Shown: positions 46,687 to 58,302 of the stretch, one piece after another | Layout: each line of letters opens with the position of its first letter | Position numbering within the stretch: position 1 is the first letter of the stretch | Sequence record: PX930852.1 | Direction: 5' to 3' (one strand) | Length of the DNA stretch: 64,000 nt | Origin: a phage | Program-made: the position numbers and the translations under genes | Notes under the pieces: generated by a model | Databases searched by the model: none | What the model was told of the DNA's origin: nothing | What the model saw: the letters and a program-made list of their open reading frames with translations, nothing else

Positions 46687-47058
46687 TTATTTTTTAAGAG
46701 TCGCTACAGCAGAGAACGTTGGTTTGTTATCTGTCTGTTGTTGACCACCATTATCAGGAGTCTTCTTAGTGTCTGCTGCAAGTGCTTTCATCTCACCTGC
46801 TGAGTGAGTAAAGATAGTTTTACCGACCTCAATCATACTCTTGATGGTTACGTCATCTGTGTTTAACCCGAACTCTGCAAGCTTAGCAGCATCCCTTGTA
46901 ACAATCGCTTCAAATAACTTTGCAGCAAACTCAGCAGAATTGTCAATGGTCAGTTGAGCTTTTACAAGTGAGCTTTTGTTGCGAGAGCCTTTTGGTCTTC
47001 CAGATGGGTTTCCAGATTGGCCTTTTTTAAACTGGCCTTTGTTTGTTCTGTTTTTCAT
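46687..47058 (-). CDS. hypothetical protein with GNPSGRPKG motif
   Basis: 123-aa ORF; basic N-terminus with Gly/Pro-rich motif. Confidence 0.45.
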   Translation of the reverse strand: MKNRTNKGQFKKGQSGNPSGRPKGSRNKSSLVKAQLTIDNSAEFAAKLFEAIVTRDAAKLAEFGLNTDDVTIKSMIEVGKTIFTHSAGEMKALAADTKKTPDNGGQQQTDNKPTFSAVATLKK

Positions 47059-47187
47059 TGGTATGCCTCTTATAAGACCTCTTAAAAGGCTTTTAAGATA
47101 AAAGATAGATATCCAGAAAGATATCTGTTTAAATAGCCTTTTTAGAGGAACCTTTTAAGTAATCTTCTAAGTATTTATAAGCCTACA

Positions 47188-47222
47188 CCTTGTCAAGTAC
47201 TTTGTCAACAACTTTTTTAACT
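47188..47222 (+). promoter_or_regulatory. conserved tandem TTGTCAA promoter-like element (copy 2)
   Basis: ACCTTGTCAAGTACTTTGTCAACAACTTTTTTAAC upstream of plus-strand operon starting 47308; shared upstream AACCTTTTAAGTAA box. Confidence 0.45.
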
Positions 47223-47307
47223 TGCAATAGTTCTTGACTTGTTGTATGGATTACTGTACCATCTTACTTAAAGCTGTAGGTCTGCCTTGTTCTACAAAGG
47301 AGACTTA

Positions 47308-47469
47308 ATGAGAAAATCAAATAAACCGAAGAAAGGTAAGAATACCAATCACTGTAAGGAATCAAAAAGGGTAGAGTCAATCTACTATTCATCCTCTGAA
47401 ATTGGTCTGTACCTGTTCTTTCAAAATTACAGAAGACAAGAGGATTATCTATGTGTAGTTCCCAATTAG
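47308..47469 (+). CDS. small basic protein (53 aa)
   Basis: ORF 47287..47469 trimmed to ATG 47308, which follows AAGGAGA RBS. Confidence 0.4.
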   Translation: MRKSNKPKKGKNTNHCKESKRVESIYYSSSEIGLYLFFQNYRRQEDYLCVVPN

Positions 47470-47684
47470 AAATCGCAGATATTATAGATTTATATCAAAC
47501 TGCAAAGAGTCATGGCTATATAACCTCAATTGGAAAGAATAGTCACTATGATGCTTTGACTGGAATGTATTTCAGGGCAATGGCTCAATCTAGTGAACAA
47601 CACTTAATGGTTTCTTCCAGTGAGTTTACTTCGTTTCTCTATTGCAGCAAAATCATAAATCGCAGGAGAACTGAAAAATGTTAA
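47451..47684 (+). CDS. hypothetical protein (77 aa)
   Basis: GAGGA RBS. Confidence 0.4.
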   Translation: MCSSQLEIADIIDLYQTAKSHGYITSIGKNSHYDALTGMYFRAMAQSSEQHLMVSSSEFTSFLYCSKIINRRRTEKC

Positions 47685-48268
47685 CAGTAAGTTTTAATTA
47701 CAATAGTGATGGCTCTGTATCAATTAATTCACCATATGCAAATGACCTACTTAAAGAGCTAGTCAATCAGTGTGATAGAGGTCTTCACTATGTTCAAAAT
47801 TCTTTTAAACAGAAGACTATCGCTAATAACTTGATGCGTGTAACAGTAACGGCATCGAATCAAAATTATGACTTTGATAGTGAAAGTCCGTACTCATTAG
47901 TTGCGCTTGGAGAGAGCAGCCAATTCAAACTTGTTTGCCACGACTCAGAAACATTCCTTAAGGTATTTTCCAACCTTATCCATAATAATAAGTACAGCTA
48001 CGTTGATGGTAGTGTAAACTTCTATCCAGCAAATTATACATGTTTGTTGGTTGATAACATGAGAAAGAGTAAGCAAGAGCCTACAGAAATTTCATTTGAT
48101 GTGAACTCTAGTCCAGACGCAGAAACAAGTAAGAACTTTGATATGAGTTACGCATTGTCGCTCAGTAAGAAATCCGAGTTCATTGATTATGTCAATGGAT
48201 TTGGTTTTAAGTTTGATGAGAGTATGAATCTTAAAAAACTTAAAAACCTACTTAAGACCAAAGCTTAA
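47678..48268 (+). CDS. hypothetical protein (196 aa)
   Basis: GGAGA RBS; followed by terminator hairpin at 48277. Confidence 0.5.
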   Translation: MLTVSFNYNSDGSVSINSPYANDLLKELVNQCDRGLHYVQNSFKQKTIANNLMRVTVTASNQNYDFDSESPYSLVALGESSQFKLVCHDSETFLKVFSNLIHNNKYSYVDGSVNFYPANYTCLLVDNMRKSKQEPTEISFDVNSSPDAETSKNFDMSYALSLSKKSEFIDYVNGFGFKFDESMNLKKLKNLLKTKA

Positions 48269-48276
48269 GTGTGAAT

Positions 48277-48300
48277 AGGGGCATCAGCCCCTTTAACTAT
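48277..48300 (+). terminator. rho-independent terminator-like hairpin
   Basis: AGGGGC-ATCA-GCCCCT followed by T-rich tract. Confidence 0.5.
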
Positions 48301-48315
48301 TTATAAGGATATTTA

Positions 48316-48687
48316 ATGAAAGCTAAGAGTGCAAAAGACTTTTATTGCTTCCTACAATCCTATATCAATTCCGTGCAAAATGGTGAAAGGTACAACCTTA
48401 ATGATGTTATCCCAACACCTTTGACATGGAGACTCAGTAAATGGCCTGAAGAAGATATTACACCAACAAGCAAACAACGTACCTACAAACCTGAAATCAA
48501 TATTCCAGACTCTGAGAACCTATTATATCCAATGTTCCATATTGTTGGTCTTGGGAGATTCCTTATGGATATTCAGTATGTAATTGGTAAAGGTTATAAG
48601 GTTAAAGGCATTGTTGTTGGTGATGTATCTCCACACCACAAAGGTTATTTTAGACTAAACGCACATTTAGAGGCTAAAAAGAAATGA
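48316..48687 (+). CDS. hypothetical protein, homologous to N-terminal domain of 48684..49817
   Basis: shared motifs with next gene (GERYNLNDVIPTPLTW.. versus GKRYDFRTYQEAILPLTY..; FLMDIQYVIGKGYKVKG versus FFMDLQYAIINGKDV). Confidence 0.5.
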   Translation: MKAKSAKDFYCFLQSYINSVQNGERYNLNDVIPTPLTWRLSKWPEEDITPTSKQRTYKPEINIPDSENLLYPMFHIVGLGRFLMDIQYVIGKGYKVKGIVVGDVSPHHKGYFRLNAHLEAKKK

Positions 48688-49817
48688 TTAAAGCAAAGAC
48701 TTACCCAGACTTTAAAGAGTTTGTGAAGGGCTTCATTGCAAACGTAAAGGCTGGTAAGAGATATGATTTTAGAACATATCAAGAGGCTATTTTACCACTT
48801 ACCTATAGTTCATATTGGCCTGAAGCTGATATTGCAGAAGTTGAGAAGTTTGACTACAAACCAGACTACAAAGTTCCATTTAGTGATGAATTGCTTTACA
48901 GTGTTGGTGCACAGATGAGAACTGCTGATTTCTTCATGGATTTGCAGTATGCAATCATCAATGGTAAAGATGTTGACACAATTTACTGTGAATGGTTGGC
49001 AAGAGTTAAGCCGTTCTCAATGTTGAATGCTAAGTTGAAGGATGCTATTAAGCCACCAGCAATTACTCAGCAACCAACAGGTCAAACAGTCAATGAGGGT
49101 GGCACACTTACTCTAAGCATTCTAGCAACTAACGCCACTGGATATCAGTGGAAGAAGGATGGTGAGGATATCCCTAGTGCCAATTCTGCAACTTACACAA
49201 AACAGTCAGTAGCACCTTCTGACGCTGGTTCATACACTTGTGTTGTATCTGGAGAGGGTGGAACAAGTGTTACCTCAGATGCAGCAACAGTGACTGTGAA
49301 CGCACTACCTGTGATTACCAAGCAACCTTCTAACCAGACTATTAATGAAGGTGGAAACATCAACTTAGCAGTTACTGCAACTGGTGCAACTGGTTACCAA
49401 TGGAAGAAAGATGGCTCTGACATTCCTTCAGCGACAAATGCTACCTATAGCAAGTCTGGTGCTCTGCCAGCAGATGCAGGTTCATACACTTGCGTTGTAA
49501 CAGGTGCAGGTGGTTCTGTCACTTCTAGCCCTGCAACGGTTATTGTTAACGCACTTCCGGTAGTCACTCAACAGCCAACCAATCAAGAAATCACTGAAGG
49601 TGAGACTTTAACACTGAATGTTGTGGCAACAGGTGCAACAGGTTACCAGTGGAAGAAAGGTGAGGAAGACATCCTCGATGCAACTGCTGCAACTTACACC
49701 AAAGAAGGTGCAACCACTGCTGATGCAGGAAGCTACACTTGTGTAGTTACTGGTGCAGGTGGCTCTGTAACATCTAATGCGGCAACAGTTACAGTTAACC
49801 CAGTAGGAGGGGCATAA
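48684..49817 (+). CDS. Ig-like repeat protein (three tandem Ig-like domains)
   Basis: three about 80-aa repeats each with YQWKKDG..DIPSA..ATY..AGSYTCVV (I-set-like) signature. Confidence 0.6.
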   Translation: MIKAKTYPDFKEFVKGFIANVKAGKRYDFRTYQEAILPLTYSSYWPEADIAEVEKFDYKPDYKVPFSDELLYSVGAQMRTADFFMDLQYAIINGKDVDTIYCEWLARVKPFSMLNAKLKDAIKPPAITQQPTGQTVNEGGTLTLSILATNATGYQWKKDGEDIPSANSATYTKQSVAPSDAGSYTCVVSGEGGTSVTSDAATVTVNALPVITKQPSNQTINEGGNINLAVTATGATGYQWKKDGSDIPSATNATYSKSGALPADAGSYTCVVTGAGGSVTSSPATVIVNALPVVTQQPTNQEITEGETLTLNVVATGATGYQWKKGEEDILDATAATYTKEGATTADAGSYTCVVTGAGGSVTSNAATVTVNPVGGA

Positions 49818-50281
49818 TGCAACTCTCAAGAAAAGGATTAGAAGCTATTAAGTTCTTTGAAGGTCTTAAGCTTGAGGCTTACGAAGATTCTGCTGGAATC
49901 CCCACAATTGGGTATGGGACAATTCGTATTGGTGGGAAGCCTGTTAAGATGGGTATGAAGATTACCGCTGAACAAGCTGAACAGTATCTTCTCGCAGATG
50001 TTGAAAAGTTCGTTGCAGCAGTGAACAAAGCCATCAAGGTTCCAACTTCTCAGAATGAGTTTGATGCACTTGTAAGTGAAACATACAACATTGGTATCAC
50101 AGCTATGCAGGACTCTACATTTATCAAGCGCCACAATGCTGGTAATAAGGTCGGTTGTGCAGAAGCTATGCAGTGGTGGAACAAGGTTACAGTAAAAGGT
50201 AAGAAGGTCACTTCAAACGGCCTGAAAAACAGACGTAGAATGGAAGCTGACATTTATCTTGACAGTGTATACCCAAAGTAA
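49817..50281 (+). CDS. endolysin, GH24 (T4 lysozyme-like)
   Basis: 154 aa; catalytic E..D..T context EGLKLEAYEDSAGIPTIGYGT; followed by strong terminator. Confidence 0.8.
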   Translation: MQLSRKGLEAIKFFEGLKLEAYEDSAGIPTIGYGTIRIGGKPVKMGMKITAEQAEQYLLADVEKFVAAVNKAIKVPTSQNEFDALVSETYNIGITAMQDSTFIKRHNAGNKVGCAEAMQWWNKVTVKGKKVTSNGLKNRRRMEADIYLDSVYPK

Positions 50282-50290
50282 TATCTTCAT

Positions 50291-50320
50291 AGGCTCCTTC
50301 GGGAGCCTTTTTTATTTTCT
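50291..50320 (+). terminator. rho-independent terminator after endolysin
   Basis: AGGCTCC-TTCG-GGAGCCT followed by TTTTTTATTTT. Confidence 0.7.
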
Positions 50321-50332
50321 AAGGAGAAAACT

Positions 50333-50731
50333 ATGAAACTTTGGGCTGATGATGTTGGGACTTTTAAGTACACTCGTAATGGCTCAATGGTGAGAATCAT
50401 TGGGAGTAACATTGTCACAATTGGCGATAGGGTACACACAATGTTCACTGTTGAGTTGGCTGAACTCTCACCTATTGAATCTGCTAACAACGGCCTGTTC
50501 AAGTTTGAGACTTACCATGTAAATGAACACGGGCAGTTTAATACTCTAGGGGAAAGTGGCCTTGATATTATTTCAGAACACCCCTTGACAAGAGAGCAGC
50601 TTGCGAGTTACTATAAAACAGTTCTTGAAAGGACTTTGGCAACACATGAGCATGAGGCCAGATATCACATAGAACGTTGTGAAGTTTTAAGAGCAAAAAT
50701 CGAACAAGCAGAGAGAGGTTTTTATGAATAA
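50333..50731 (+). CDS. hypothetical protein (132 aa)
   Basis: first gene of overlapping plus-strand operon. Confidence 0.5.
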   Translation: MKLWADDVGTFKYTRNGSMVRIIGSNIVTIGDRVHTMFTVELAELSPIESANNGLFKFETYHVNEHGQFNTLGESGLDIISEHPLTREQLASYYKTVLERTLATHEHEARYHIERCEVLRAKIEQAERGFYE

Positions 50732-51113
50732 AGAGATTCAAGTAAAAGTTGACACTTTTGGACATGATGGTCGAGAAGATGCTGGACTTGCCGACGCAGT
50801 GATTTTTGAGTGTAATGGGAATATTAGTCTTCGCTTTACAGGCTCAGGTAGCACCCTTCGCAGAATGCGAGATGATGAAGATGGTTGCCCTGTATTTGGC
50901 TGGTATGATATGGAGTTTCCTCGTTACGCCATCCATTATCCAGATGGTGGAGAAGACTGGACAACTCAATCAATCCGCGATGAGCTTAATGGCATTCCAG
51001 TTGAGCAAGAAGAGCAAGAGCCTGTTGAACTCACCTTCACTTTTATCAAAGAAGAGAAAGTAGGTGATTTGTCAGTAACTGAAGCAATTCAAGTCTCACA
51101 GGTTATTCGTTAA
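50724..51113 (+). CDS. hypothetical protein (129 aa)
   Basis: start overlaps upstream stop. Confidence 0.5.
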   Translation: MNKEIQVKVDTFGHDGREDAGLADAVIFECNGNISLRFTGSGSTLRRMRDDEDGCPVFGWYDMEFPRYAIHYPDGGEDWTTQSIRDELNGIPVEQEEQEPVELTFTFIKEEKVGDLSVTEAIQVSQVIR

Positions 51114-51406
51114 TGAGTAAAGTACAGGTTGTTTTCCCTATTTGTGACTTCTCACTAGAGCGTGAACTTGACCTGTACGAAGAAATTACTGACGAAATTA
51201 TCTGGTCTGTTGTAGAAGAGGCTATCAAGAAGCTATATGGTGGCCTCTTAAACCCATCAAGTAAAAAGCTCAATACTAAACAAGTAGCTGACTCATATGT
51301 TTCATATGATGCCTACAACAAACCTTTTGAGAATACCTGCTTTGACCTTATGGTAGGTAATAACAAAGTCAACTATTTCTTCGTCAGAGAGTTTAACGAT
51401 GAGTAA
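51113..51406 (+). CDS. hypothetical protein (97 aa)
   Basis: coupled ORF. Confidence 0.45.
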   Translation: MSKVQVVFPICDFSLERELDLYEEITDEIIWSVVEEAIKKLYGGLLNPSSKKLNTKQVADSYVSYDAYNKPFENTCFDLMVGNNKVNYFFVREFNDE

Positions 51407-51743
51407 GCTCCATGTCACAGTGTACAAAAACTTCTCAGATATCAAAGAGTCTTTAACAAATAAGCTTGACTTACAACGTAAAAGACTCTTTTTAATGTAC
51501 GACATAGATAACTACAACCATCCTAAAGAGTTTAACTACAAAGATGGTACAAAGGTCGTTGAATTTGAAGATTCTGTGACGGTGTATGTCAAGCATGACT
51601 TACCAGCAAAGTACATAGGGATGTTAGAGTACTACATATTCAAACATACAGGTATGCGTGGTGAAGCTGTTAAGATATCTTCTATAGAAGTTTTTGAGAA
51701 ACCTAACACACAACTTAAAAAGTATTTAATGAGGAAACTGTAA
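51399..51743 (+). CDS. hypothetical protein (114 aa)
   Basis: coupled ORF. Confidence 0.45.
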   Translation: MSKLHVTVYKNFSDIKESLTNKLDLQRKRLFLMYDIDNYNHPKEFNYKDGTKVVEFEDSVTVYVKHDLPAKYIGMLEYYIFKHTGMRGEAVKISSIEVFEKPNTQLKKYLMRKL

Positions 51744-52333
51744 TGTCCGAAGAGCAACAGAATATCACTCCACAAGTAACACTAGTCCAACATTTTGGAA
51801 ACATTGAAGGGTGTATTGCACTTTTTCAACCAAGTATCAACTCTCCTGCAAAAGTTTGCAAGTTGACTATGAATGTTAACAATATCAGTGTTTGCCTTGT
51901 TGATGAAGTCCAGTACTTCAAGTTTAATGACAGAGAGGTTGATGCTGCACTATTGAAGTACCGAGCAAATCTCGAAAAAGACATCGACCACAAAGAACTT
52001 GTAACACTGTTTGGTGACCTTCACAAGCTTCTTGAAAAGGTTATGAAGCGTACATACTACATGAACAATGGTTCAATCATCACCACTTTGATTTCACCAT
52101 GTATCTCAGAGCCGATTCTGACTGATGAAGGTGGATACTACGTAGTGGCATCAGCAGATTCTGATTGGTGGATGAAAAATACAGCACTTAAGACGGTTAT
52201 TGAGGCTATTCGTGAGCATATCCCTTCATTCAGCCCGTGGAAAGGTAAAGGTGATGACTTTATCGCATTGTTGAGCGAAGAAAGTAGCAAACGTAGTGCA
52301 TTAATGCCTAAGAAATACTCTTGCCGAGTATAA
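51743..52333 (+). CDS. hypothetical protein (196 aa)
   Basis: coupled ORF. Confidence 0.5.
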   Translation: MSEEQQNITPQVTLVQHFGNIEGCIALFQPSINSPAKVCKLTMNVNNISVCLVDEVQYFKFNDREVDAALLKYRANLEKDIDHKELVTLFGDLHKLLEKVMKRTYYMNNGSIITTLISPCISEPILTDEGGYYVVASADSDWWMKNTALKTVIEAIREHIPSFSPWKGKGDDFIALLSEESSKRSALMPKKYSCRV

Positions 52334-52395
52334 AATATTGACTATAATGGGAGCTATCGAGAGGTAGTTCCCTTTTTAGTTTCTGGAGAATAGAT

Positions 52396-52941
52396 ATGCC
52401 TAAAGTAAAAGAACACGATAAAATTATTCTGTATGTTAAACAAAACCCTTTGAAGAGTGTTGAGGCTGTTGTGACATATGTCTCACACAATGGTACAGTC
52501 TATTTTCGACCACTGAAGAACTTAGACTTTGATACTACACCAAACCACACATTTAGTACTTCTGCAAGACTGTGTGCAGGAACTGTATACTCAACCGCTG
52601 AGATTGAGTCCTTAGCTTTCACAGGTGCTTACAAGAACTTTATAGGGATTGCTTTAAAGGACTCTGAAGAAACTTTTAAGTTTTTCATGGAAACTAATAA
52701 AGGCTGTTATGAACATACCATGCCAGTTTTTAAGAGGGTTGGTACAGAGCTTGCTAGTAAGTGCGAAGAAATTAGCAGCGACCTGAAGGAACTTAAAGCA
52801 TCGGTGCAGAATGCTGTTTACATCATTGAAAGGAACCACTTAGAAGCTCTTTTCAGAGATATGTTGAAAGCAGGGTTTACTCCAAACGAAATTACAAGAG
52901 AGACTCAACGACAGTTCAGAAACGCTATGGTGAAAGAATGA
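52396..52941 (+). CDS. hypothetical protein (181 aa)
   Basis: ORF with upstream RBS. Confidence 0.5.
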   Translation: MPKVKEHDKIILYVKQNPLKSVEAVVTYVSHNGTVYFRPLKNLDFDTTPNHTFSTSARLCAGTVYSTAEIESLAFTGAYKNFIGIALKDSEETFKFFMETNKGCYEHTMPVFKRVGTELASKCEEISSDLKELKASVQNAVYIIERNHLEALFRDMLKAGFTPNEITRETQRQFRNAMVKE

Positions 52942-53156
52942 AAAAGTTAACTACAGTTGAAGATTACTACAAACTATCCCTGTTAGAGCAGTATCGTAGG
53001 AGCCAGAATATCAGAAAATGCTATGGTAAACACGCTGAAGGTGACTTTTACCGTTGCTACGATGCAGATTTAAAAGGTGTAACACCTAGAGGGAAAGTCC
53101 TGCAAAGGCTTGTTGACCTTGAGTGGAACAAACGATTGAGAGGGGTTGGGAAATGA
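52938..53156 (+). CDS. hypothetical protein (72 aa)
   Basis: ATGA overlap with upstream gene. Confidence 0.4.
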   Translation: MKKLTTVEDYYKLSLLEQYRRSQNIRKCYGKHAEGDFYRCYDADLKGVTPRGKVLQRLVDLEWNKRLRGVGK

Positions 53157-53656
53157 TTTACGAAGAAAGATACAAGATAGATTATCAGAAGACTGGTCAT
53201 CATACTTCACTAAGAGTAACCAAACCAAATGGGGATACTGGTATCATAGCACATTTTGGTGGTGATTATTGGTACGGTACAGGTTGCTTTGAAGGCTACA
53301 CTCAAGAATACTTGAAAGCTTTCTACAGAGACTTTACAAATGACTACAACAGTGTTGTTGAAGAGAAGAATAAGTGCATTAAGCATGAATACCATGCCAG
53401 AGGTTGTCTGAATATTGCTATGATACTGGTTTTCTTCTTAGCAACATTACTAGCCGTATCAGCAATCAGCTACATAGCTCAAGACTTGACTATTACACAG
53501 ATTACTGCAAAGGTATATGATGTTTGGTACTTGTATGTTGTTCCTTTAGCTGGTATCATCATCTCACTAATGAGGTTCAGAGTTCATAAGAAACGACTTA
53601 AGGATTCTGAGGTTAAACTTGAAGAGGTAAGTAAAGAATGCAACCTACAATTATAG
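53123..53656 (+). CDS. putative membrane protein (177 aa)
   Basis: two predicted TM helices (ILVFFLATLLAVSAISYIA, WYLYVVPLAGIIISLM). Confidence 0.45.
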   Translation: MEQTIERGWEMIYEERYKIDYQKTGHHTSLRVTKPNGDTGIIAHFGGDYWYGTGCFEGYTQEYLKAFYRDFTNDYNSVVEEKNKCIKHEYHARGCLNIAMILVFFLATLLAVSAISYIAQDLTITQITAKVYDVWYLYVVPLAGIIISLMRFRVHKKRLKDSEVKLEEVSKECNLQL

Positions 53657-53732
53657 CTGTATGTGTTCGTTTTGCAATCGCTGAAATGATTAACAAGGCA
53701 ATCTTAAAAGATGCCTATGGAGAGACTAAGTA

Positions 53733-53957
53733 ATGATTAAGACACCTGTACCAATTTTTGGATTTCCTTCTATAGAAGAGTTCAAAGTTTATCTTGACAA
53801 AAACTTCTATAATGAGCAGCCTGTAACGCTTCTGAAGAGTGACTTATCAGAGCTTCTTGATATGGTTATCAAGGCAACTTCTGAGAAGGAACCTGAGCAG
53901 AAAGCTGAGAAGAAGACTAGCAAGAAATCCGATAAGAAGACTGAAAAGTCTGAGTAA
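53733..53957 (+). CDS. hypothetical protein with Lys-rich tail (74 aa)
   Basis: ORF followed by hairpin at 53964. Confidence 0.4.
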   Translation: MIKTPVPIFGFPSIEEFKVYLDKNFYNEQPVTLLKSDLSELLDMVIKATSEKEPEQKAEKKTSKKSDKKTEKSE

Positions 53958-54009
53958 TAACTTAGGGGTTACTTGATAGCCCCTTTGTAGGAACTTAGAA
54001 GGTAGCGAA

Positions 54010-54432
54010 ATGAAAGAGCTTATTGGTAAAAGATTGACAGTTTACTGCTCTAAAACAAAGAAACCACTTACTTCTGTGAAGGTCTTTGATGTTGACACCA
54101 CTGGTGTAGAGTACCCAATCCAATGCACAATAATTACTCCATTCCATGCAGATGATATGGATTTTAAAGAGTGTGAAGTGATATCTTTTAATGCTGATGG
54201 GTATTGGAGAGGTAAGTTAAACAAGCAATCAGAAGATTTTGATATGCAAATCCTTATCAATGAAGGCTATATCGGTGTAAAAGATATCCTTGTAGAAGCC
54301 TATGCAGAAGGTATAATAGATGTTGTGAATGATGTTGAAAAAGCTTTAAAACTCATCATGCCACATTTAGAATCTGGAAAGCTGACTTTAGAGATGCTTA
54401 ATAGGGTTATTCGGAGAGCTTATGAAAATTAA
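54010..54432 (+). CDS. hypothetical protein (140 aa)
   Basis: ORF with RBS. Confidence 0.5.
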   Translation: MKELIGKRLTVYCSKTKKPLTSVKVFDVDTTGVEYPIQCTIITPFHADDMDFKECEVISFNADGYWRGKLNKQSEDFDMQILINEGYIGVKDILVEAYAEGIIDVVNDVEKALKLIMPHLESGKLTLEMLNRVIRRAYEN

Positions 54433-54886
54433 AGAAGTAGTGCAAAGAGCAATGCTTGACAATTCTACTAAAGATGAGATGTACACAGAAATTTGTGATA
54501 AGTTGAACTGCTCAAGACATGCTGCTAAGGTTCTTGTACATTGTTTTATCTGGGAATGCTCAGAAGCTTATATGAAACACGTAGCTTTTGAGAGTTCTCA
54601 TTTACTCGGTGATGCAAAAATAGGTGTAGCACTAAAAGAGCCTGAGATGAAAACAGTACCTAAAGTTGGTAATGTGTATAAACTAAAAAATTTTATTACA
54701 GGCGAGATTGTTGCAGAAGGTGAAGTGCAACAGGTTTATCATGATGGTAAATATCTGTTTAAGATATTCGAGTATGATAGTCGTTACAGACACTTATGTG
54801 GGATTACATTTTTAGTTTCAGAAGATGACCTCATCAAGAACAATAGTAATAAATTCGCAGTACCAGAATATCAAGTTTTACGATAA
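54422..54886 (+). CDS. hypothetical protein (154 aa)
   Basis: overlaps upstream stop. Confidence 0.45.
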   Translation: MKIKEVVQRAMLDNSTKDEMYTEICDKLNCSRHAAKVLVHCFIWECSEAYMKHVAFESSHLLGDAKIGVALKEPEMKTVPKVGNVYKLKNFITGEIVAEGEVQQVYHDGKYLFKIFEYDSRYRHLCGITFLVSEDDLIKNNSNKFAVPEYQVLR

Positions 54887-54899
54887 TGGTGTGATATCT

Positions 54900-55448
54900 A
54901 TGGAAAAAGATAACTTAAAAGAAGTTGAAGGTAACTACCTAGTACTTGACTGGAGTGATGTTCGAGAAGCACTCTCCGAAGAAAATCTTGACTGGTTCGA
55001 ACAAATTATCTTTGCAGTACGGCATAACAGAGAAGTTGAAAATGGTAAAGAGCCACTTGAAGGAATCTTTGTAGAAAGGTCTTATCCGTTCTATGAAGAC
55101 ACTTTGCAGAAAGTTAAGATGTACTTTAGACAGAAGAACCGTAAAGTGGTCACTATGGTATCTCTTGGTGGACAGAGTATGTCTGTGATGGAAGATATCA
55201 ACCCTAAGAGACCGAGTAAAGGTATTTGTATAAAAATCACAGGACATGAAGAGTACATCTCAGTAGACGATTTTAGTTCATTCTGTAGTGGTTCTTGTGT
55301 CTTTAATGGTTTTCACTATGATATCCGAGTGTACCCAATCAAGGGAGATGATATCATGATGCAGATATTCGATAACAACAATGGATTCACTCATTTTTAT
55401 CAGACAACTAAGTCATCCCTAAAAACAGTTCTGGAAACACTGATTTAA
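54900..55448 (+). CDS. hypothetical protein
   Basis: ORF 54825..55448 trimmed to ATG 54900 to avoid overlap; followed by terminator. Confidence 0.45.
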   Translation: MEKDNLKEVEGNYLVLDWSDVREALSEENLDWFEQIIFAVRHNREVENGKEPLEGIFVERSYPFYEDTLQKVKMYFRQKNRKVVTMVSLGGQSMSVMEDINPKRPSKGICIKITGHEEYISVDDFSSFCSGSCVFNGFHYDIRVYPIKGDDIMMQIFDNNNGFTHFYQTTKSSLKTVLETLI

Positions 55449-55459
55449 AATATCTTAAG

Positions 55460-55490
55460 AGCCTCCTTAATCGGGGGCTTTTTAATTTTT
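55460..55490 (+). terminator. rho-independent terminator closing plus-strand operon
   Basis: AGCCTCC-TTAATC-GGGGGCT followed by TTTTTAATTTTT. Confidence 0.65.
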
Positions 55491-57064
55491 ATAAAATTTT
55501 ATCGGTTGTCCCAACCTCTGGGTCACCATCATATGTGAATAAAATATCTATCCTTCTTAACAACCTTCTTAATCTTACTCTCTATATAGTTATATAGTAC
55601 TATATAGTATCTTAGTAACTATCTAGTGGTCTTAATAGCCCCTCTGTATAACCCTTCTAACAAGCCCTCTAACAAGCCTTCTTAACAACCTATACAATCA
55701 CCTTAACCATCCCTCTACACCTTCTTAGAAGCTCCTATACACCTCTTAATCTCTATGTCAGCTATGATAATCTCTATAGGTGTTCACTAGGTATTACTAA
55801 GCCTCTATATAGACTGTTTTAATAAACTTAACAGGAATATCTTTACAGGCCTTATCTCACAAGGTCTAACACGGTACTAACAAGGTATCTTATAAGCCTG
55901 TTATTACCTGTATTTTTAAAAGGCTGTATAGGTAATTATTCAGAATCTTAAAATTTTTATAAAATAGGACTGTCAAGTCATTTTTTAGGGTCTTTGAAGG
56001 AACTCAAAAATATCTGATTAGGATGTATATCTGCTTGGTAGCCCTTAACAGCTCCCTTACAAGTACTTTGCAAAATTTTAAAATATCCTTAACAATTTCT
56101 TAACAGTTCTAACACCTTCTTAACAACTCTTCAAAGGTCTTAACAGATTCTTAACAGAACTAACAAGGCTGTAACAGATTTCTAACAAGTACTGAATAGG
56201 CTTTACAGAATCTTAACAGATGACTAACAAGAGCTAACAAGTTAATTTTTAAGAGTTATTTTGTTAAGATAATTAACAAGTTTCTAACAAGTGTTTAATC
56301 TTTTTAACAAGCTATTAACATGGTCACTATCTCTTTTCTTATCGTTCCCTTTCCTTTCTTAGTGACTTCTTAAACATACCTCTTAAAAGCCCTCTATAGC
56401 TCCTTGTAAGCCCTTTTAAGCCTCTTCCTAGTATCTATCCCCCAACTGTACAGATAGCTCTTTATAGGGCTTTACAGGAGCTTATAAGGCTATGTCAAAG
56501 ACTCTTACAAGGCTTTTACGTGGTCTTAACAGAGATTTAACAAGGGGCTAACAAGTTGCTAACAAGTGCCTTAAAAGCATAACTATGTAGGGATTGTTAA
56601 GAAATTGTTAAGAAAATGTTAAGGGGGCTAGCATTTACGTAACTTTATAGCCTCTTTTACGTAACTTTGAAGTAACTTTATAGCCCCTATAACATACTTT
56701 TAAGACACTACCAATAGGATTCGATAGATTCCTATCTCATAGCCCTTTTTAATAGTTCACAAGAATACTAACGAGATGATAAAGCTTACACCCTTATAAG
56801 ATTCTTTTAAGGCTCTAGGAAGTTTTATAAAGGGATTTTTAGGGTGAGTTAATGCAATCCCTTAAGTTAGGTTGATAAGGCTGTTATAGAGCTTTATAGA
56901 GCGTTTTAGTGGTTGCCCTTCCCTTTCGGGTTATGGGCTTATATTTAAGTTGATTTGATAAGAAGATATAGAGTAGACTATAGAGTTATTGCTTTTAAGG
57001 TCTGGTAAGATTCTAACTTGTTAGGGGAGTCTGGGAAGATTCTGGGAAGGGATTGGATAGACGT
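55491..57064 (+). repeat. ORF-free region dense in TAACAAG/TAACAGA-type motifs
   Basis: no ORF of 60 aa or more in any frame; tens of CTTAACAA/CTAACAAG/TTAACAGA copies almost all on plus strand; secondary repeats TTACGTAACTTT and GTAACTTTATAGCC. Confidence 0.7.
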
Positions 57065-57094
57065 AAAAAAGCCCCTATGAGAAGGAGCTTTTCA
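57065..57094. terminator. terminator closing minus-strand early array
   Basis: AAAAAA-AGCCCCT-loop-AGGAGCT-TTTT; second hairpin GGGGCTAAATAGCCCC at 57102-57117. Confidence 0.5.
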
Positions 57095-57127
57095 GGTATC
57101 TGGGGCTAAATAGCCCCGTTGCGTCGA

Positions 57128-57376
57128 TTAGTTGTAACCTTGTTTGCTGTAGTATAGGGAGACGATTTTTTCTCCCCAGTAGTGGTAGTGATATTCCTCG
57201 TTTATGGCTTCTTTTACAGCGTCCTTCCAAAAGTCATCGGTAGGGTTATAATCTGGTAGCACCTGCTGAATCAGCATTTTGATAAGGTCAAAGGTGTTAT
57301 CTGTTCCACCGATATCGAATTTTGCATCAAGTTCGTGGCAGCCATAAGCATTAACAGTTACGCGGATAGTTGACAT
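57128..57376 (-). CDS. hypothetical early protein (82 aa)
   Basis: preceded by type-A cassette and GGAGA RBS; followed by terminator at 57065. Confidence 0.5.
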   Translation of the reverse strand: MSTIRVTVNAYGCHELDAKFDIGGTDNTFDLIKMLIQQVLPDYNPTDDFWKDAVKEAINEEYHYHYWGEKIVSLYYSKQGYN

Positions 57377-57441
57377 AATTTAGATTCTCCAGTTTAGGAC
57401 TTTACTTAGTGGGGGGAGGTCATCCCCCGTTAATTAGTAAT
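57377..57441 (-). promoter_or_regulatory. type-A early-gene cassette (hairpin plus RBS)
   Basis: minus sense GGGGGATGACCTCCCCCC stem-loop then ACTAAGTAAAGTCCTAAACTGGAGAATC and ATG. Confidence 0.55.
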
Positions 57442-57705
57442 TTACTGCATATTGGCGTATGTTGCAAGCCTTTTTTCGTTGTATTTTGTAAGAATCTCAC
57501 AAGATACAACATCATACTTTGTAACAGCGTTGCCTTTATCGAGGTCAAAAAAGCCAAACGCTTTACCATCTTTGAATCCGACAACTTCGTAAGATTCTTT
57601 GATGATTTCACCATTGAACAAATCACTTTCGATACGGTGAAATAATGCTACATCTTCTTTGTCGGTTGCAATTTGTAAAAGTGTGGTTAATTCTACGTTT
57701 TCCAT
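57442..57705 (-). CDS. hypothetical early protein (87 aa)
   Basis: preceded by type-A cassette and RBS. Confidence 0.5.
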   Translation of the reverse strand: MENVELTTLLQIATDKEDVALFHRIESDLFNGEIIKESYEVVGFKDGKAFGFFDLDKGNAVTKYDVVSCEILTKYNEKRLATYANMQ

Positions 57706-57771
57706 CTTGATAACTCCAGTTTAGGACTTTATTTAGTGGGGAAGGTCATTCCCTCCCCGTTGATTGACAAT
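57706..57771 (-). promoter_or_regulatory. type-A early-gene cassette
   Basis: conserved TTGTCAATCAACGGGGAGGGAATGACCTTCCCCACTAAATAAAGTCCTAAACTGGAG. Confidence 0.55.
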
Positions 57772-58302
57772 TTACAGACTTTTAAGTGTCTCGTCAATAT
57801 CTTTTTCAATGTCTTTTAAAGTTTTTTCTAAGTTCTTGATATTGAAGGATAAACCTTCACCGAGAGTCTTAGAGTAACCACTAGGACGTAAATTATACAG
57901 TTTAATTTCTTCCACTTTAAAGAGACTAACTAACTCACCGTTTACATCATAAGCCATTGAAACAGTATTTGCAGGTGCATTGTAAAACTTGTTTAGTGAC
58001 TTGATAGAACGTTCATAAGCCATTTTATAACCGTTTAAAAGGTTTTTAACGTGGTTGTGAACGTTTTTACACTCATCTAAGTAAATCTCTAAGAATAACG
58101 GTAATAATTCCGCTACAGCTTGCATAAAGTGAGAGACTACAACGGTTGCAACATTACGACGATGTACATAATAAGCCCCGTTTTCTGACTTAGTGATGGT
58201 TGCAAAGTGTACCCCATTACAACGAAATTCATATGTATCTTTTACAGGCTTAGACATTACAGCATTTGAACGAATGAAGTTGATAGCTTTAAACTTGTTC
58301 AT
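57772..58302 (-). CDS. hypothetical early protein (176 aa)
   Basis: preceded by type-A cassette and RBS. Confidence 0.5.
   Translation of the reverse strand: MNKFKAINFIRSNAVMSKPVKDTYEFRCNGVHFATITKSENGAYYVHRRNVATVVVSHFMQAVAELLPLFLEIYLDECKNVHNHVKNLLNGYKMAYERSIKSLNKFYNAPANTVSMAYDVNGELVSLFKVEEIKLYNLRPSGYSKTLGEGLSFNIKNLEKTLKDIEKDIDETLKSL

What the first reader, a model, noticed from the sequence alone, without database searches (positions are those of the whole stretch)
50333..55448. Twelve-gene plus-strand operon of unknown function between two strong terminators
Genes 50333..55448 are tightly packed with ATGA-type overlaps and bounded by terminators at 50291 and 55460. None has a motif I can recognise. 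It includes a two-TM membrane protein (53123..53656) and a Lys-rich tail protein (53733..53957). Clusters like this in virulent phages commonly hold host-takeover or anti-defence functions.
Basis: inference. Interest (0 to 1): 0.4.

Follow-up and report, generated by a model that had tools for sequence, protein, structure and literature searches.

The report
Felix O1-type block of unknown genes
This is the conserved run of thirteen small, non-structural genes that follows the endolysin gene in Felix O1-like phages. The genes are real and are already annotated as 'hypothetical' in hundreds of genomes, and no search here shows what any of them does.

Summary
The window is a Felixounavirus. Region 50333-55448 is Felix O1 ORF34 to ORF24. 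All twelve ORFs are real genes (dN/dS 0.03-0.37), and there is a missed 13th gene of 31 aa at 53638-53733. Both flanking terminators exist, but it is not one operon. The strongest terminator (Felix O1 't29', 52349-52372, -16.3 kcal/mol) lies inside it, and a conserved hairpin lies at 53964-53984. Conserved sigma-70-like promoters abut terminators 50291 and 52349, so there are at least two insulated units: g1-g5 and g6-g12. Pfam, NCBIfam, PADLOC, PDB sequences and two AlphaFold models gave no functional assignment. PHROGs lists every protein as 'unknown function'. Ten of the 13 genes are present in every Felixounavirus, Mooglevirus and Suspvirus locus examined; g6, g10 and g11 come and go. Published data show the Felix O1 products are absent from virions and that transcripts mostly peak mid-infection. 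All twelve SUSP1 orthologues were 'Not Fit' in a CRISPRi-ART screen. In a distant relative the same block carries the anti-Gabija gene Gad1. Best reading: lineage-restricted, non-essential intracellular accessory proteins. An anti-defence or host-modulating role is plausible but unproven. This is an ordinary, already annotated 'known unknown'.

The parts
50259..50287 (+). Sigma-70-like promoter (TTGACA-17-TATCTT). It overlaps the endolysin 3' end and ends 3 nt before the terminator stem.
   Evidence: It is retained as TTGACG-17-TAGATT or TATATT in Moogle, Sf14, SUSP1 and pEC-M719. Promoter function is inferred, not shown.
50291..50308 (+). Intrinsic terminator after the endolysin gene (Felix O1 't35')
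   Evidence: -12.9 kcal/mol, z -3.5. Listed in Whichard 2010 Table 2. The sequence is identical in all loci.
50333..50731 (+). g1, 132 aa (Felix O1 ORF34; phrog_4266, unknown function)
   Evidence: dN/dS 0.10-0.16. Two allele classes within the genus, about 81% and about 98% identity.
50724..51113 (+). g2, 129 aa, acidic (pI 4.3; ORF33; phrog_4348). Orthologues are mislabelled 'D-Ala-D-Ala carboxypeptidase' in some records.
   Evidence: dN/dS 0.05-0.17. An orthologue is present in the distant relative L023.
51113..51406 (+). g3, 97 aa, acidic (ORF32; phrog_4385). First gene of the old g3-g4-g5 triad.
   Evidence: Found next to g4 and g5 in Yersinia phage P778.
51399..51743 (+). g4, 114 aa, basic (ORF31; phrog_4040)
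   Evidence: Distant homologues are adjacent to g5 in L057 and L060.
51743..52333 (+). g5, 196 aa (ORF30; phrog_4109)
   Evidence: Profile search found 15 representatives among 1.84 billion proteins. The AF2 model has pLDDT 66 and no PDB fold match. The SUSP1 orthologue agp119 scores -4.81.
52321..52348 (+). Sigma-70-like promoter (TTGCCG-16-TATAAT) that ends exactly at the first base of the next hairpin
   Evidence: It reads TTGACC or TTGACA, N17-18, TATGAT in nearly all relatives although the spacers have diverged. Function is inferred.
52349..52372 (+). Internal intrinsic terminator (Felix O1 't29'), the most stable hairpin of the region
   Evidence: (-16.3 kcal/mol, z -5.1).
52396..52941 (+). 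g6, 181 aa (ORF29; phrog_5380). Optional gene, absent from about a third of the loci.
   Evidence: 44 clusters, all on Ounavirinae-sized contigs.
52938..53156 (+). g7, 72 aa, basic (ORF28; phrog_4459)
53153..53656 (+). g8, 167 aa from ATG 53153 (ORF27; phrog_4343). A soluble N-terminal domain of about 80 aa, two transmembrane spans and a charged C-terminus.
   Evidence: (profile begins at residue 11 of the GTG form). An orthologue is present in L023 and L025.
53638..53733 (+). g8a, 31-aa partly hydrophobic peptide. This is the 13th gene, not in the finding.
   Evidence: Annotated in Mushroom, Alf5, Sf14 and SUSP1. Conserved, with dN/dS 0.17-0.20.
53733..53957 (+). g9, 74 aa with a Lys/Glu/Ser-rich tail (ORF26; phrog_4457)
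   Evidence: The tail is variable; the first 50 aa are conserved.
53964..53984 (+). Conserved hairpin without a T run, between g9 and g10
   Evidence: -13.2 kcal/mol. Its position and GGGG/CCCC stem are conserved in Moogle, Sf14, SUSP1 and P219. Annotated as a terminator in XTG1.
54010..54432 (+). g10, 140 aa (phrog_7193). Optional gene, absent from Felix O1 and from about half of the loci.
54422..54886 (+). g11, 154 aa (ORF25; phrog_4713). Occasionally absent or truncated.
54825..55448 (+). g12, 207 aa, or 182 aa from ATG 54900 (ORF24; phrog_4330). The C-terminal half is a confidently modelled beta4-alpha-beta4-alpha domain.
55457..55482 (+). Intrinsic terminator that closes the plus-strand array
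   Evidence: -14.5 kcal/mol. A terminator is conserved at this position, with a different sequence, in other genera.

Best explanation
Region 50333-55448 is the Felix O1 ORF34 to ORF24 block. It holds thirteen genuine small protein genes that follow the endolysin gene in Felixounavirus, Mooglevirus and Suspvirus.

It is organised as at least two terminator-insulated transcription units:
- promoter 50259-50287, then g1-g5, then terminator 52349
- promoter 52321-52348, then g6-g9, a hairpin, g10-g12, then terminator 55457

Each promoter is of the host sigma-70 type and abuts the terminator of the preceding unit. A transcript started about 7 nt after the -10 hexamer would lack the 5' arm of that hairpin and so escape it. 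Read-through from upstream would be stopped.

The products are lineage-restricted proteins that are not part of the virion. They act inside the infected cell: eleven are soluble, and g8 plus the small peptide g8a are at the inner membrane. They are not needed for plaque formation on a laboratory host. The most likely role is accessory modulation of the host or of infection outcome (host physiology, exclusion or counter-defence), not replication, assembly or lysis proper. g3-g4-g5 is an old, always adjacent triad and probably works as one unit.

Shown: gene reality, conservation pattern, the hairpins, the promoter-like motifs and their conservation, and the lack of detectable homology.
Taken from the literature: absence from virions, transcript timing, and the 'Not Fit' status.
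Inferred: promoter use, escape from termination, and the host-directed function.
For: - Identity with Felix O1 ORF24-34 and SUSP1 agp112-123.
- Purifying selection on all 13 genes.
- Ten genes are present in every Felixounavirus, Mooglevirus and Suspvirus locus examined; g6, g10 and g11 are optional.
- The families are confined to Ounavirinae-like contigs of about 82-93 kb: 17, 114 and 44 clusters for g5, g12 and g6. A profile search for g5 found 15 representatives among 1.84 billion proteins.
- There are no hits above threshold in Pfam, NCBIfam, PADLOC or PDB sequences. All 13 proteins match PHROGs of unknown function.
- gp24-gp34 are absent from the Felix O1 virion proteome, whereas their neighbours gp23 and gp36 are present.
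- SUSP1 agp112-123 are all 'Not Fit'.
- Promoter-like elements scoring 10 of 12 abut two of about nine terminators in the window, against a background of 0.29% of positions.
- These elements are conserved, with diverged spacers, across genera.
- The same module sits at 6 of 20 terminators in the whole SUSP1 genome. The other four lie in the nucleotide-metabolism and rII arm.
- The full hairpins fold at -12.9 and -16.3 kcal/mol. Transcripts starting 7 nt after the -10 fold at only -4.5 and -4.3.
- Gad1 (PF25705, E 2.7e-65) lies in the same post-endolysin block of a distant relative.
- The g3-g4-g5 order is kept in Yersinia phage P778 and in metagenomic relatives.
Against: - No protein in the window has any detected similarity to a known host-takeover or anti-defence protein.
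- The block is mostly fixed rather than variable.
- Felix O1 RT-PCR places ORFs 24-26, 28, 29 and 32-34 at the 25-min peak together with the endolysin, ORF30 (g5) at 60 min, and only ORF31 (g4) at 5 min. That table is noisy: it also lists the capsid gene as peaking at 5 min.
- The CRISPRi-ART screen has false negatives. The endolysin agp124 and the head protease agp005 were also 'Not Fit', so 'dispensable' is weak evidence.
- Transcription start sites have never been mapped, so the insulated-unit model rests on sequence alone.
- Gad1 is guilt by association from a phage that shares only g2, g3, g5, g8 and g9 with the window.
Confidence: 0.5

Rival explanations
1. The block, or its proximal part g1-g5, is a lysis-associated module. 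It would tune when or how completely the endolysin-dependent lysis happens, acting as lysis timing or inhibition factors, with g8 and g8a as membrane partners.
For: - It sits immediately downstream of the endolysin in every relative.
- A very distant g5 homologue (E 5e-15) still lies three genes after a PF00959 lysozyme.
- In Felix O1 most of these ORFs peak at 25 min, as the lysin does.
- g8 and g8a are membrane proteins.
- Knock-down of the SUSP1 g5 orthologue gives the most negative score of the whole screen (-4.81). That could mean faster or more complete loss of cells.
Against: - A strong terminator separates the endolysin from g1.
- Holin and spanin candidates are annotated elsewhere: SUSP1 agp028 and agp086/087, and Felix O1 gp79, 116, 118, 119 or 131.
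- g8 has an N-terminal domain of about 80 aa and matches no holin family.
- Synteny within one phage lineage does not by itself show functional linkage.
- The -4.81 value could be a guide artefact. The tail fibre gene scores -4.59.
Confidence: 0.17
2. The distal genes (g10-g12, perhaps also g7 and g9) are DNA- or RNA-binding proteins. They would serve the adjacent 1.6-kb non-coding repeat region, which may be an origin, a packaging site or the genome ends.
For: - g12 ends 50 nt before a region packed with CTTAACA and CTAACAAG motifs spaced 10-11 nt apart.
- The g12 C-terminal domain is beta4-alpha-beta4-alpha. Its best PDB neighbours are Whirly/PUR-type nucleic-acid binders and SsgB: 2gje (prob 0.99, TM 0.47), 6suj (TM 0.46) and 5fgp.
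- g4 and g7 are basic, and g9 has a Lys-rich tail.
- Many database records open about 1 kb past g12.
Against: - The fold matches are not significant (E at least 0.016, TM below 0.5).
- BFVD returns only uncharacterised proteins.
- The repeat motif is invariant across three genera, while g12 diverges to 47% identity and occurs as several alleles. There is therefore no co-variation.
- The SUSP1 orthologues agp112 and agp113 are 'Not Fit', which is unexpected for origin or packaging factors.
- g10 and g11 are optional.
Confidence: 0.1
3. The genes encode minor virion components or assembly chaperones. They would belong with the neighbouring Ig-domain virion protein (48684-49817).
For: They share a strand and a gene array with the Ig-domain protein (Felix O1 gp36, found in virions). 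Small proteins are easily missed by proteomics.
Against: - None of gp24-gp34 appears in the Felix O1 virion proteome, although the 9.7-kDa gp23 was detected.
- All SUSP1 orthologues are 'Not Fit', whereas most structural genes scored Fit or Semi-Fit.
- Two terminators with their own promoters separate them from the Ig-protein gene.
- There are no PHROG structural categories among the matches.
Confidence: 0.05

Closest known systems
Felix O1 ORF34-ORF24 (Felix01p068 to p050), the distal part of 'transcripton 40-24' with terminators t35 and t29 (Whichard et al. 2010, PMC3185647)
   Same: It is the same genes in the same order, with 76-100% protein identity within the genus. Both terminators are identical. 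The genes are annotated as hypothetical, are absent from the virion proteome, and their transcripts were detected by RT-PCR.
   Different: The window carries g10, which Felix O1 lacks. Felix O1 does not annotate the 31-aa g8a. The 2010 paper left open how transcription passes the terminators. The abutting promoters described here are not in it.
Escherichia phage SUSP1 agp123-agp112 (Suspvirus), screened by CRISPRi-ART (PMC11879866)
   Same: It is a syntenic block after the endolysin agp124 and matches the same PHROGs. Protein identity is 30-79% for the shared genes. The same promoter-terminator modules are present.
   Different: It has no g10, and its g6 is a longer form (228 aa). Functional data exist only for SUSP1: all twelve orthologues are 'Not Fit', and agp119 is a strongly negative outlier.
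Accessory or anti-defence gene clusters of virulent phages, for example the Gad1-containing post-endolysin block of the metagenomic relative L023/L024
   Same: Both are strings of small, tightly packed, same-strand genes of unknown function at the same genomic position. They share g2, g3, g5, g8 and g9.
   Different: The window has no Gad1 and no other recognisable anti-defence gene. Its gene content is far more stable: 10 of 13 genes are fixed.
The small-ORF run e.1-e.8 downstream of the lysozyme gene e in phage T4 (from general knowledge, not tested here)
   Same: It is a run of small, largely non-essential ORFs of mostly unknown function directly downstream of the lysozyme gene in a virulent myovirus.
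   Different: No sequence similarity was detected. PHROG, Pfam and PDB searches returned no T4 families. The resemblance is positional only.

Membership tests
Single operon bounded by two intrinsic terminators (the finding's description) | No efficient terminator between the first and the last gene | tested here: not met
   A hairpin followed by a T run lies at 52349-52372 (-16.3 kcal/mol), and it is stronger than both flanking terminators. It is published as t29. A second conserved hairpin lies at 53964-53984.
Single operon bounded by two intrinsic terminators (the finding's description) | One promoter upstream of the first gene drives all the genes | tested here: inconclusive
   Two conserved sigma-70-like promoters, at 50259-50287 and 52321-52348, suggest two or more units. 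No start-site data exist.
Known phage anti-defence proteins (Gad1, Ocr, ArdA, Acr, Tad and the other families held in Pfam) | Sequence or profile similarity to a described anti-defence family | tested here: not met
   No Pfam hit reaches its cut-off for any of the 13 proteins or for the Moogle, SUSP1 and Sf14 orthologues tested. There are no PDB sequence hits. Gad1 is found only in the distant relative L023.
Accessory (variable) gene island | Gene content varies among close relatives | tested here: inconclusive
   g6, g10 and g11, plus one alternative gene of 90-103 aa, are present or absent. The other ten genes are in every Felixounavirus, Mooglevirus and Suspvirus locus examined.
Accessory (variable) gene island | Dispensable for growth on a permissive laboratory host | not testable with these tools
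   The literature gives only this: SUSP1 orthologues agp112-123 are 'Not Fit' in CRISPRi-ART. The screen also missed the endolysin.
Early host-takeover genes | Transcribed in the first minutes from host-RNA-polymerase promoters | tested here: inconclusive
   Host-type promoter motifs are present and conserved. However, Felix O1 RT-PCR peaks at 25 min for most genes, at 5 min for ORF31 only, and at 60 min for ORF30.
Holin, antiholin or spanin lysis proteins (considered for g8 and g8a) | A small membrane protein matching a holin or spanin family and forming a cassette with the endolysin | tested here: not met
   g8 matches phrog_4343, of unknown function, and no Pfam holin family. It lies seven genes and two terminators away from the endolysin. 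It does have two transmembrane spans and a charged C-terminus.
VanY / D-Ala-D-Ala carboxypeptidase (the label carried by g2 orthologues in several GenBank records) | A peptidase M15/VanY domain | tested here: not met
   Pfam and NCBIfam return nothing for g2 apart from a chance PIG-H hit at E 0.19. The label traces back to other phage records.
Whirly/PUR-like nucleic-acid-binding fold (considered for the g12 C-terminal domain) | Two beta-beta-beta-beta-alpha repeats that superpose on Whirly, MRP or Pur-alpha with a significant score | tested here: inconclusive
   The model has beta4-alpha-beta4-alpha topology with pLDDT above 90. The best matches are 2gje, 6suj, 3cm1 and 5fgp, with TM 0.36-0.47 and E 0.06-0.19. 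These are below significance.
Virion structural proteins | Detected in purified particles | not testable with these tools
   The literature gives only this: the Felix O1 proteome lists gp23 and gp36 but none of gp24-gp34.

The most novel reading that the evidence does not exclude
At least one part of the block is a new kind of effector. The best candidate is the ancient, always adjacent triad g3-g4-g5. Its family is tiny, and the g5 model has no match among solved structures. It stays in the post-endolysin block (in one distant relative three genes after a lysozyme gene), and knock-down of its SUSP1 orthologue gives the most extreme negative score in a genome-wide screen. The triad could be a previously unknown regulator of infected-cell fate or lysis timing, or a counter-defence complex. 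Separately, the 'promoter butted against the previous terminator' module could be a general insulation device of Ounavirinae transcription that has not been described.
Probability: 0.2. Interest if true: 0.55.

Novelty: already known. Interest (0 to 1): 0.25.

Why it matters
Felix O1-like phages are widely used for Salmonella and E. coli typing, biocontrol and therapy, yet this 5-kb block, about 6% of the genome, has no assigned function. It matters for engineering to know three things: the block is real, it is mostly fixed across three genera, and it is non-structural and apparently dispensable on laboratory hosts. It is a candidate region for deletion or payload insertion. It also matters for predicting host range if some of the genes counter defences. 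The promoter-terminator arrangement offers a testable answer to a question left open in the 2010 Felix O1 genome paper: how transcription gets past the many terminators. The finding itself does not reveal a new system.

Tried and rejected
- Pfam on all 13 proteins and on divergent orthologues gave only sub-threshold chance hits: DUF5092 at 5e-4 for g5, and Poly_export at 2e-4 for SUSP1 g6.
- NCBIfam and PADLOC gave nothing.
- PDB sequence searches, by profile for g5 and g12 and by single sequence for eight others, gave nothing below E 0.009 and nothing coherent.
- The AlphaFold2 model of g5 has mediocre confidence (pLDDT 66) and no PDB fold match, with the best TM about 0.2.
- The AlphaFold2 model of g12 has a well-modelled C-terminal domain, but Foldseek found only weak Whirly/PUR/SsgB-like neighbours in PDB and only uncharacterised phage proteins in BFVD.
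- All-against-all hhalign of the 15 orthologue alignments found no paralogy. The best was g10 against g11 at probability 22%.
- Rfam on 47000-58000 gave no hit.
- I tested whether the repeat motif downstream co-varies with g12 alleles. The motif is invariant, so the test is uninformative.
- The Erwinia phage FIfi106 'Macro domain' hit was only a 53-nt terminator-like match in a non-syntenic region, so I dropped it.
- GC and GC3 of the optional genes are unremarkable, so there is no compositional sign of recent import.
- Literature searches for Felixounavirus transcriptomics or anti-defence work found nothing relevant.

Full report
**What the window is.** Megablast of 50300-55500 against GenBank phages finds 249 records, and 177 of them cover at least 80% of the query. 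All are Felix O1-like myoviruses. The best is Felixounavirus LF82P9 at 96.8% identity, and wV8 is at 92%. A more sensitive blastn also finds Mooglevirus (Moogle, Sf14, Sf17) and related phages at about 69-72% identity. The surroundings fit this identification. There are 25 tRNA genes at 39799-45025 on the minus strand. A plus-strand array follows, made of two unknown genes, an Ig-domain (Hoc-like) virion protein at 48684-49817 and a GH24 endolysin at 49817-50281. The finding lies directly downstream of that endolysin. Against the Felix O1 reference, the genes are ORF34 (g1), 33 (g2), 32 (g3), 31 (g4), 30 (g5), 29 (g6), 28 (g7), 27 (g8), 26 (g9), 25 (g11) and 24 (g12). Felix O1 has no g10.

**Checking the observation.**
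- All twelve ORFs are present as described. Each has an SD-like sequence, and the junctions overlap by 1, 4, 8, 11 or 19 nt.
- Nei-Gojobori dN/dS against orthologues in wV8, radambza, Moogle and SUSP1 is 0.03-0.37 for every gene, similar to the endolysin at 0.05-0.10. They are therefore real protein-coding genes.
- A 13th gene was missed. The 31-aa ORF at 53638-53733 overlaps the end of g8 and shares one base with the start of g9. It is annotated in several relatives, is conserved in all three genera, and has dN/dS 0.17-0.20.
- g8 more probably starts at ATG 53153 than at GTG 53123. This start gives an ATGA overlap with g7, has a GAGAGGGG SD, and matches position 1 of the PHROG profile.
- g8 has two hydrophobic spans in its C-terminal half.
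- The terminators at 50291-50308 and 55457-55482 are real, at -12.9 and -14.5 kcal/mol.
- The region is not one unit. The most stable hairpin followed by a T run lies inside it, at 52349-52372 (-16.3 kcal/mol, z -5.1). It is the published Felix O1 terminator t29, just as the hairpin at 50291 is t35.
- A further hairpin at 53964-53984 (-13.2 kcal/mol) is conserved in position and stem across genera but lacks a T run.

**Transcription architecture.** A sigma-70-like promoter scoring 10 of 12 sits directly against each of the two terminators at 50291 and 52349. TTGACA-17-TATCTT ends 3 nt before the first stem. TTGCCG-16-TATAAT ends at the first base of the second stem.
- In the window, only these two of about nine terminators have such a neighbour. 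Only 0.29% of all positions would score as well.
- The second promoter reads TTGACC or TTGACA, N17-18, TATGAT in almost every relative, including Moogle, Sf14, pEC-M719 and SUSP1, although the spacer sequences have diverged. The first keeps a TAnnnT -10 after the endolysin stop codon.
- In the complete SUSP1 genome, 6 of 20 terminator-like sites carry the same module. Two are in this block and four are in the nucleotide-metabolism and rII arm.
- E. coli RNA polymerase normally starts about 7 nt after the -10 hexamer (established knowledge). Such transcripts would begin inside the 5' arm of the hairpin. The truncated RNAs fold at only -4.5 and -4.3 kcal/mol.
- My inference is that each hairpin stops transcription arriving from upstream, while the abutting promoter starts a new transcript that cannot form the hairpin. 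That would give at least two insulated units, g1-g5 and g6-g12. [quoted passage not shown]
- No start sites have been mapped, so this remains an inference.

**Search for function.**
- Every protein matches a PHROG that covers it end to end and is labelled 'unknown function'.
- None reaches a Pfam cut-off, and neither do divergent orthologues.
- NCBIfam and PADLOC give nothing.
- Sequence searches against all PDB chains give nothing credible.
- The families are small and lineage-bound. There are 17 clusters for g5, 114 for g12 and 44 for g6 among 5.8 billion proteins, all without Pfam domains, and the long contigs among them are about 82-93 kb.
- A full HMMER profile search with g5 finds only 15 representatives at E up to 1e-3 among 1.84 billion proteins.
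- The AlphaFold2 model of g5 is mediocre (pLDDT 66) and has no PDB neighbour.
- The model of g12 has a confident C-terminal domain (pLDDT above 90) with beta4-alpha-beta4-alpha topology. Its best PDB neighbours are Whirly/PUR-type nucleic-acid binders and SsgB, with TM 0.36-0.47 and E 0.06-0.19. That is a lead, not an assignment. BFVD returns only uncharacterised phage proteins.
- The thirteen proteins are not paralogues of each other.
- The 'D-alanyl-D-alanine carboxypeptidase' label on g2 orthologues in several GenBank records has no support.

**Conserved or accessory?** I examined 50 Felixounavirus, Mooglevirus and Suspvirus loci. Some are duplicates of the same genome held in two collections.
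- g1-g5, g7, g8, g8a, g9 and g12 are always present and in the same order.
- g6 is present in about two thirds of the loci, g10 in about half, and g11 in about nine tenths.
- One alternative gene of 90-103 aa appears in six loci.
- Within the genus, g3, g4, g7 and g8a are nearly invariant. g1, g2, g10, g11 and g12 occur as distinct alleles at 56-98% identity.
- Between genera these proteins diverge more (45-68% identity to Moogle) than the endolysin does (86-89%).
- In more distant relatives the block shrinks to an old core. L025 keeps g1-g5, g8, g9 and g10. L023 and L024 keep g2, g3, g5, g8 and g9. Yersinia phage P778 keeps g3-g4-g5 adjacent and in order. A metagenomic contig keeps a g5 homologue three genes after a lysozyme gene.
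- In L023 and L024 the block is expanded by about twenty more small genes. One of them is a clear Gad1 anti-Gabija homologue (PF25705, 221 bits against a cut-off of 27).

**Published experimental data.**
- In Felix O1, none of gp24-gp34 was found in the virion proteome, although the flanking gp23 (9.7 kDa) and gp36 were.
- RT-PCR gave maximal signal at 25 min for ORFs 24, 25, 26, 28, 29, 32, 33 and 34 and for the lysin ORF35. The peak was at 5 min for ORF31 and at 60 min for ORF30.
- The same table lists the major capsid gene as peaking at 5 min, so it is only a rough guide.
- In SUSP1, a genome-wide CRISPRi-ART knock-down screen classed all twelve orthologues (agp112-123) as 'Not Fit', with scores from -0.53 to +1.04. 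The screen also missed the endolysin and the head protease.
- The exception in value is agp119, the g5 orthologue. Its score of -4.81 is the most negative of all 138 genes. The tail fibre gene scores -4.59 and the next lowest gene scores -2.83. I cannot explain this.

**Interpretation.**
- The evidence fits a set of lineage-restricted, non-virion proteins that are not needed on a laboratory host. They are expressed from host-type promoters in two or more insulated units and act in the cytoplasm and, for g8 and g8a, at the inner membrane.
- A role in modulating the host or the outcome of infection is the most economical reading.
- That suggestion is still a prior and not a result. No protein here resembles any known takeover or anti-defence factor, and most of the block is fixed rather than variable.
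- Three rivals remain: a lysis-associated role, a nucleic-acid-binding role for the distal genes at the adjacent repeat region, and, much less likely, a structural or assembly role.

**Novelty and score.** The genes, two of the terminators and their 'hypothetical' status have been in the literature since 2010 and are present in more than 250 public genomes. As a feature this is already known, and a block of unassigned small genes is ordinary for a virulent phage. Four small additions come from this work:
- the internal subdivision of the block
- the promoter-against-terminator modules
- the 13th gene
- the ancient g3-g4-g5 triad with its unexplained screen outlier

Interest is 0.25.

Noticed in passing
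window 55500-57070: A 1.6-kb non-coding stretch (GC 34%) lies between the convergent terminators at 55457-55482 (+) and 57090-57069 (-). It is packed with CTTAACA(R) and CTAACAAG motifs, often 10-11 nt apart, with three inverted copies at 56594-56625. 14 of the 43 CTWAACAR matches in the whole window fall within 55556-56612. The motif array is conserved unchanged in Felixounavirus, Mooglevirus and Suspvirus. Several GenBank records open 0.9-1.2 kb past g12, so the physical ends, a packaging site or an origin may lie here.
   Followed up: partly
window 50259-50308 and 52321-52372; SUSP1 (L021+L022) positions 47867, 52507, 56573, 62766, 77502, 79577: There is a recurrent module in which a sigma-70-like promoter ends 0-4 nt before the stem of an intrinsic terminator. 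A transcript from the promoter would lack the 5' arm of the hairpin. The module sits at 6 of 20 terminators in the SUSP1 genome and at 2 of about 9 in the window. Background for a match this good is 0.3-1.3% of positions.
   Followed up: partly
L023:10993-11994 (metagenomic 87-kb Ounavirinae-like phage, ENA ERZ28599557) and L024:8967-9968: A Gad1 (anti-Gabija) homologue (PF25705, E 2.7e-65) lies in the expanded post-endolysin block of a distant relative, five genes after the g8 homologue. A weak metallophosphoesterase-like protein lies at L023:9947-10492.
   Followed up: partly
SUSP1 agp119 (L022:32535-33125, minus strand), orthologue of window 51743-52333: In the published CRISPRi-ART screen this gene has the most negative score of all 138 SUSP1 genes (-4.81). 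Only the tail fibre gene agp026 (-4.59) is comparable. The authors class it as 'Not Fit', and the cause is unexplained.
   Followed up: no
window 53638-53733: A conserved 31-aa ORF (MQPTIIAVCVRFAIAEMINKAILKDAYGETK) is translationally coupled to g8 and g9. It is annotated in only some relatives and is missing from the Felix O1 reference annotation.
   Followed up: yes
window 50724-51113 (g2) and its orthologues in radambza, heid, BPS17W1 and others: The GenBank product name 'D-alanyl-D-alanine carboxypeptidase' is propagated among Felixounavirus records for a 129-aa acidic protein that has no peptidase domain in Pfam or NCBIfam.
   Followed up: yes
window 48316-48687 and 48684-49817: The 123-aa protein upstream of the Ig-domain virion protein resembles that protein's own N-terminal ~120 residues (phrog_3995 and phrog_4463 cross-hits). 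The number of Ig repeats in the larger protein varies between relatives, with products from about 210 to 470 aa.
   Followed up: no
window 55485-55501 and 55949-55965: The near-palindromic AT-rich motif AATTTTTATAAAAT(T) occurs just after the g12 terminator and again about 460 nt further on. The first copy is conserved at the same place in Moogle, Sf14, P219, pEC-M719 and SUSP1.
   Followed up: no
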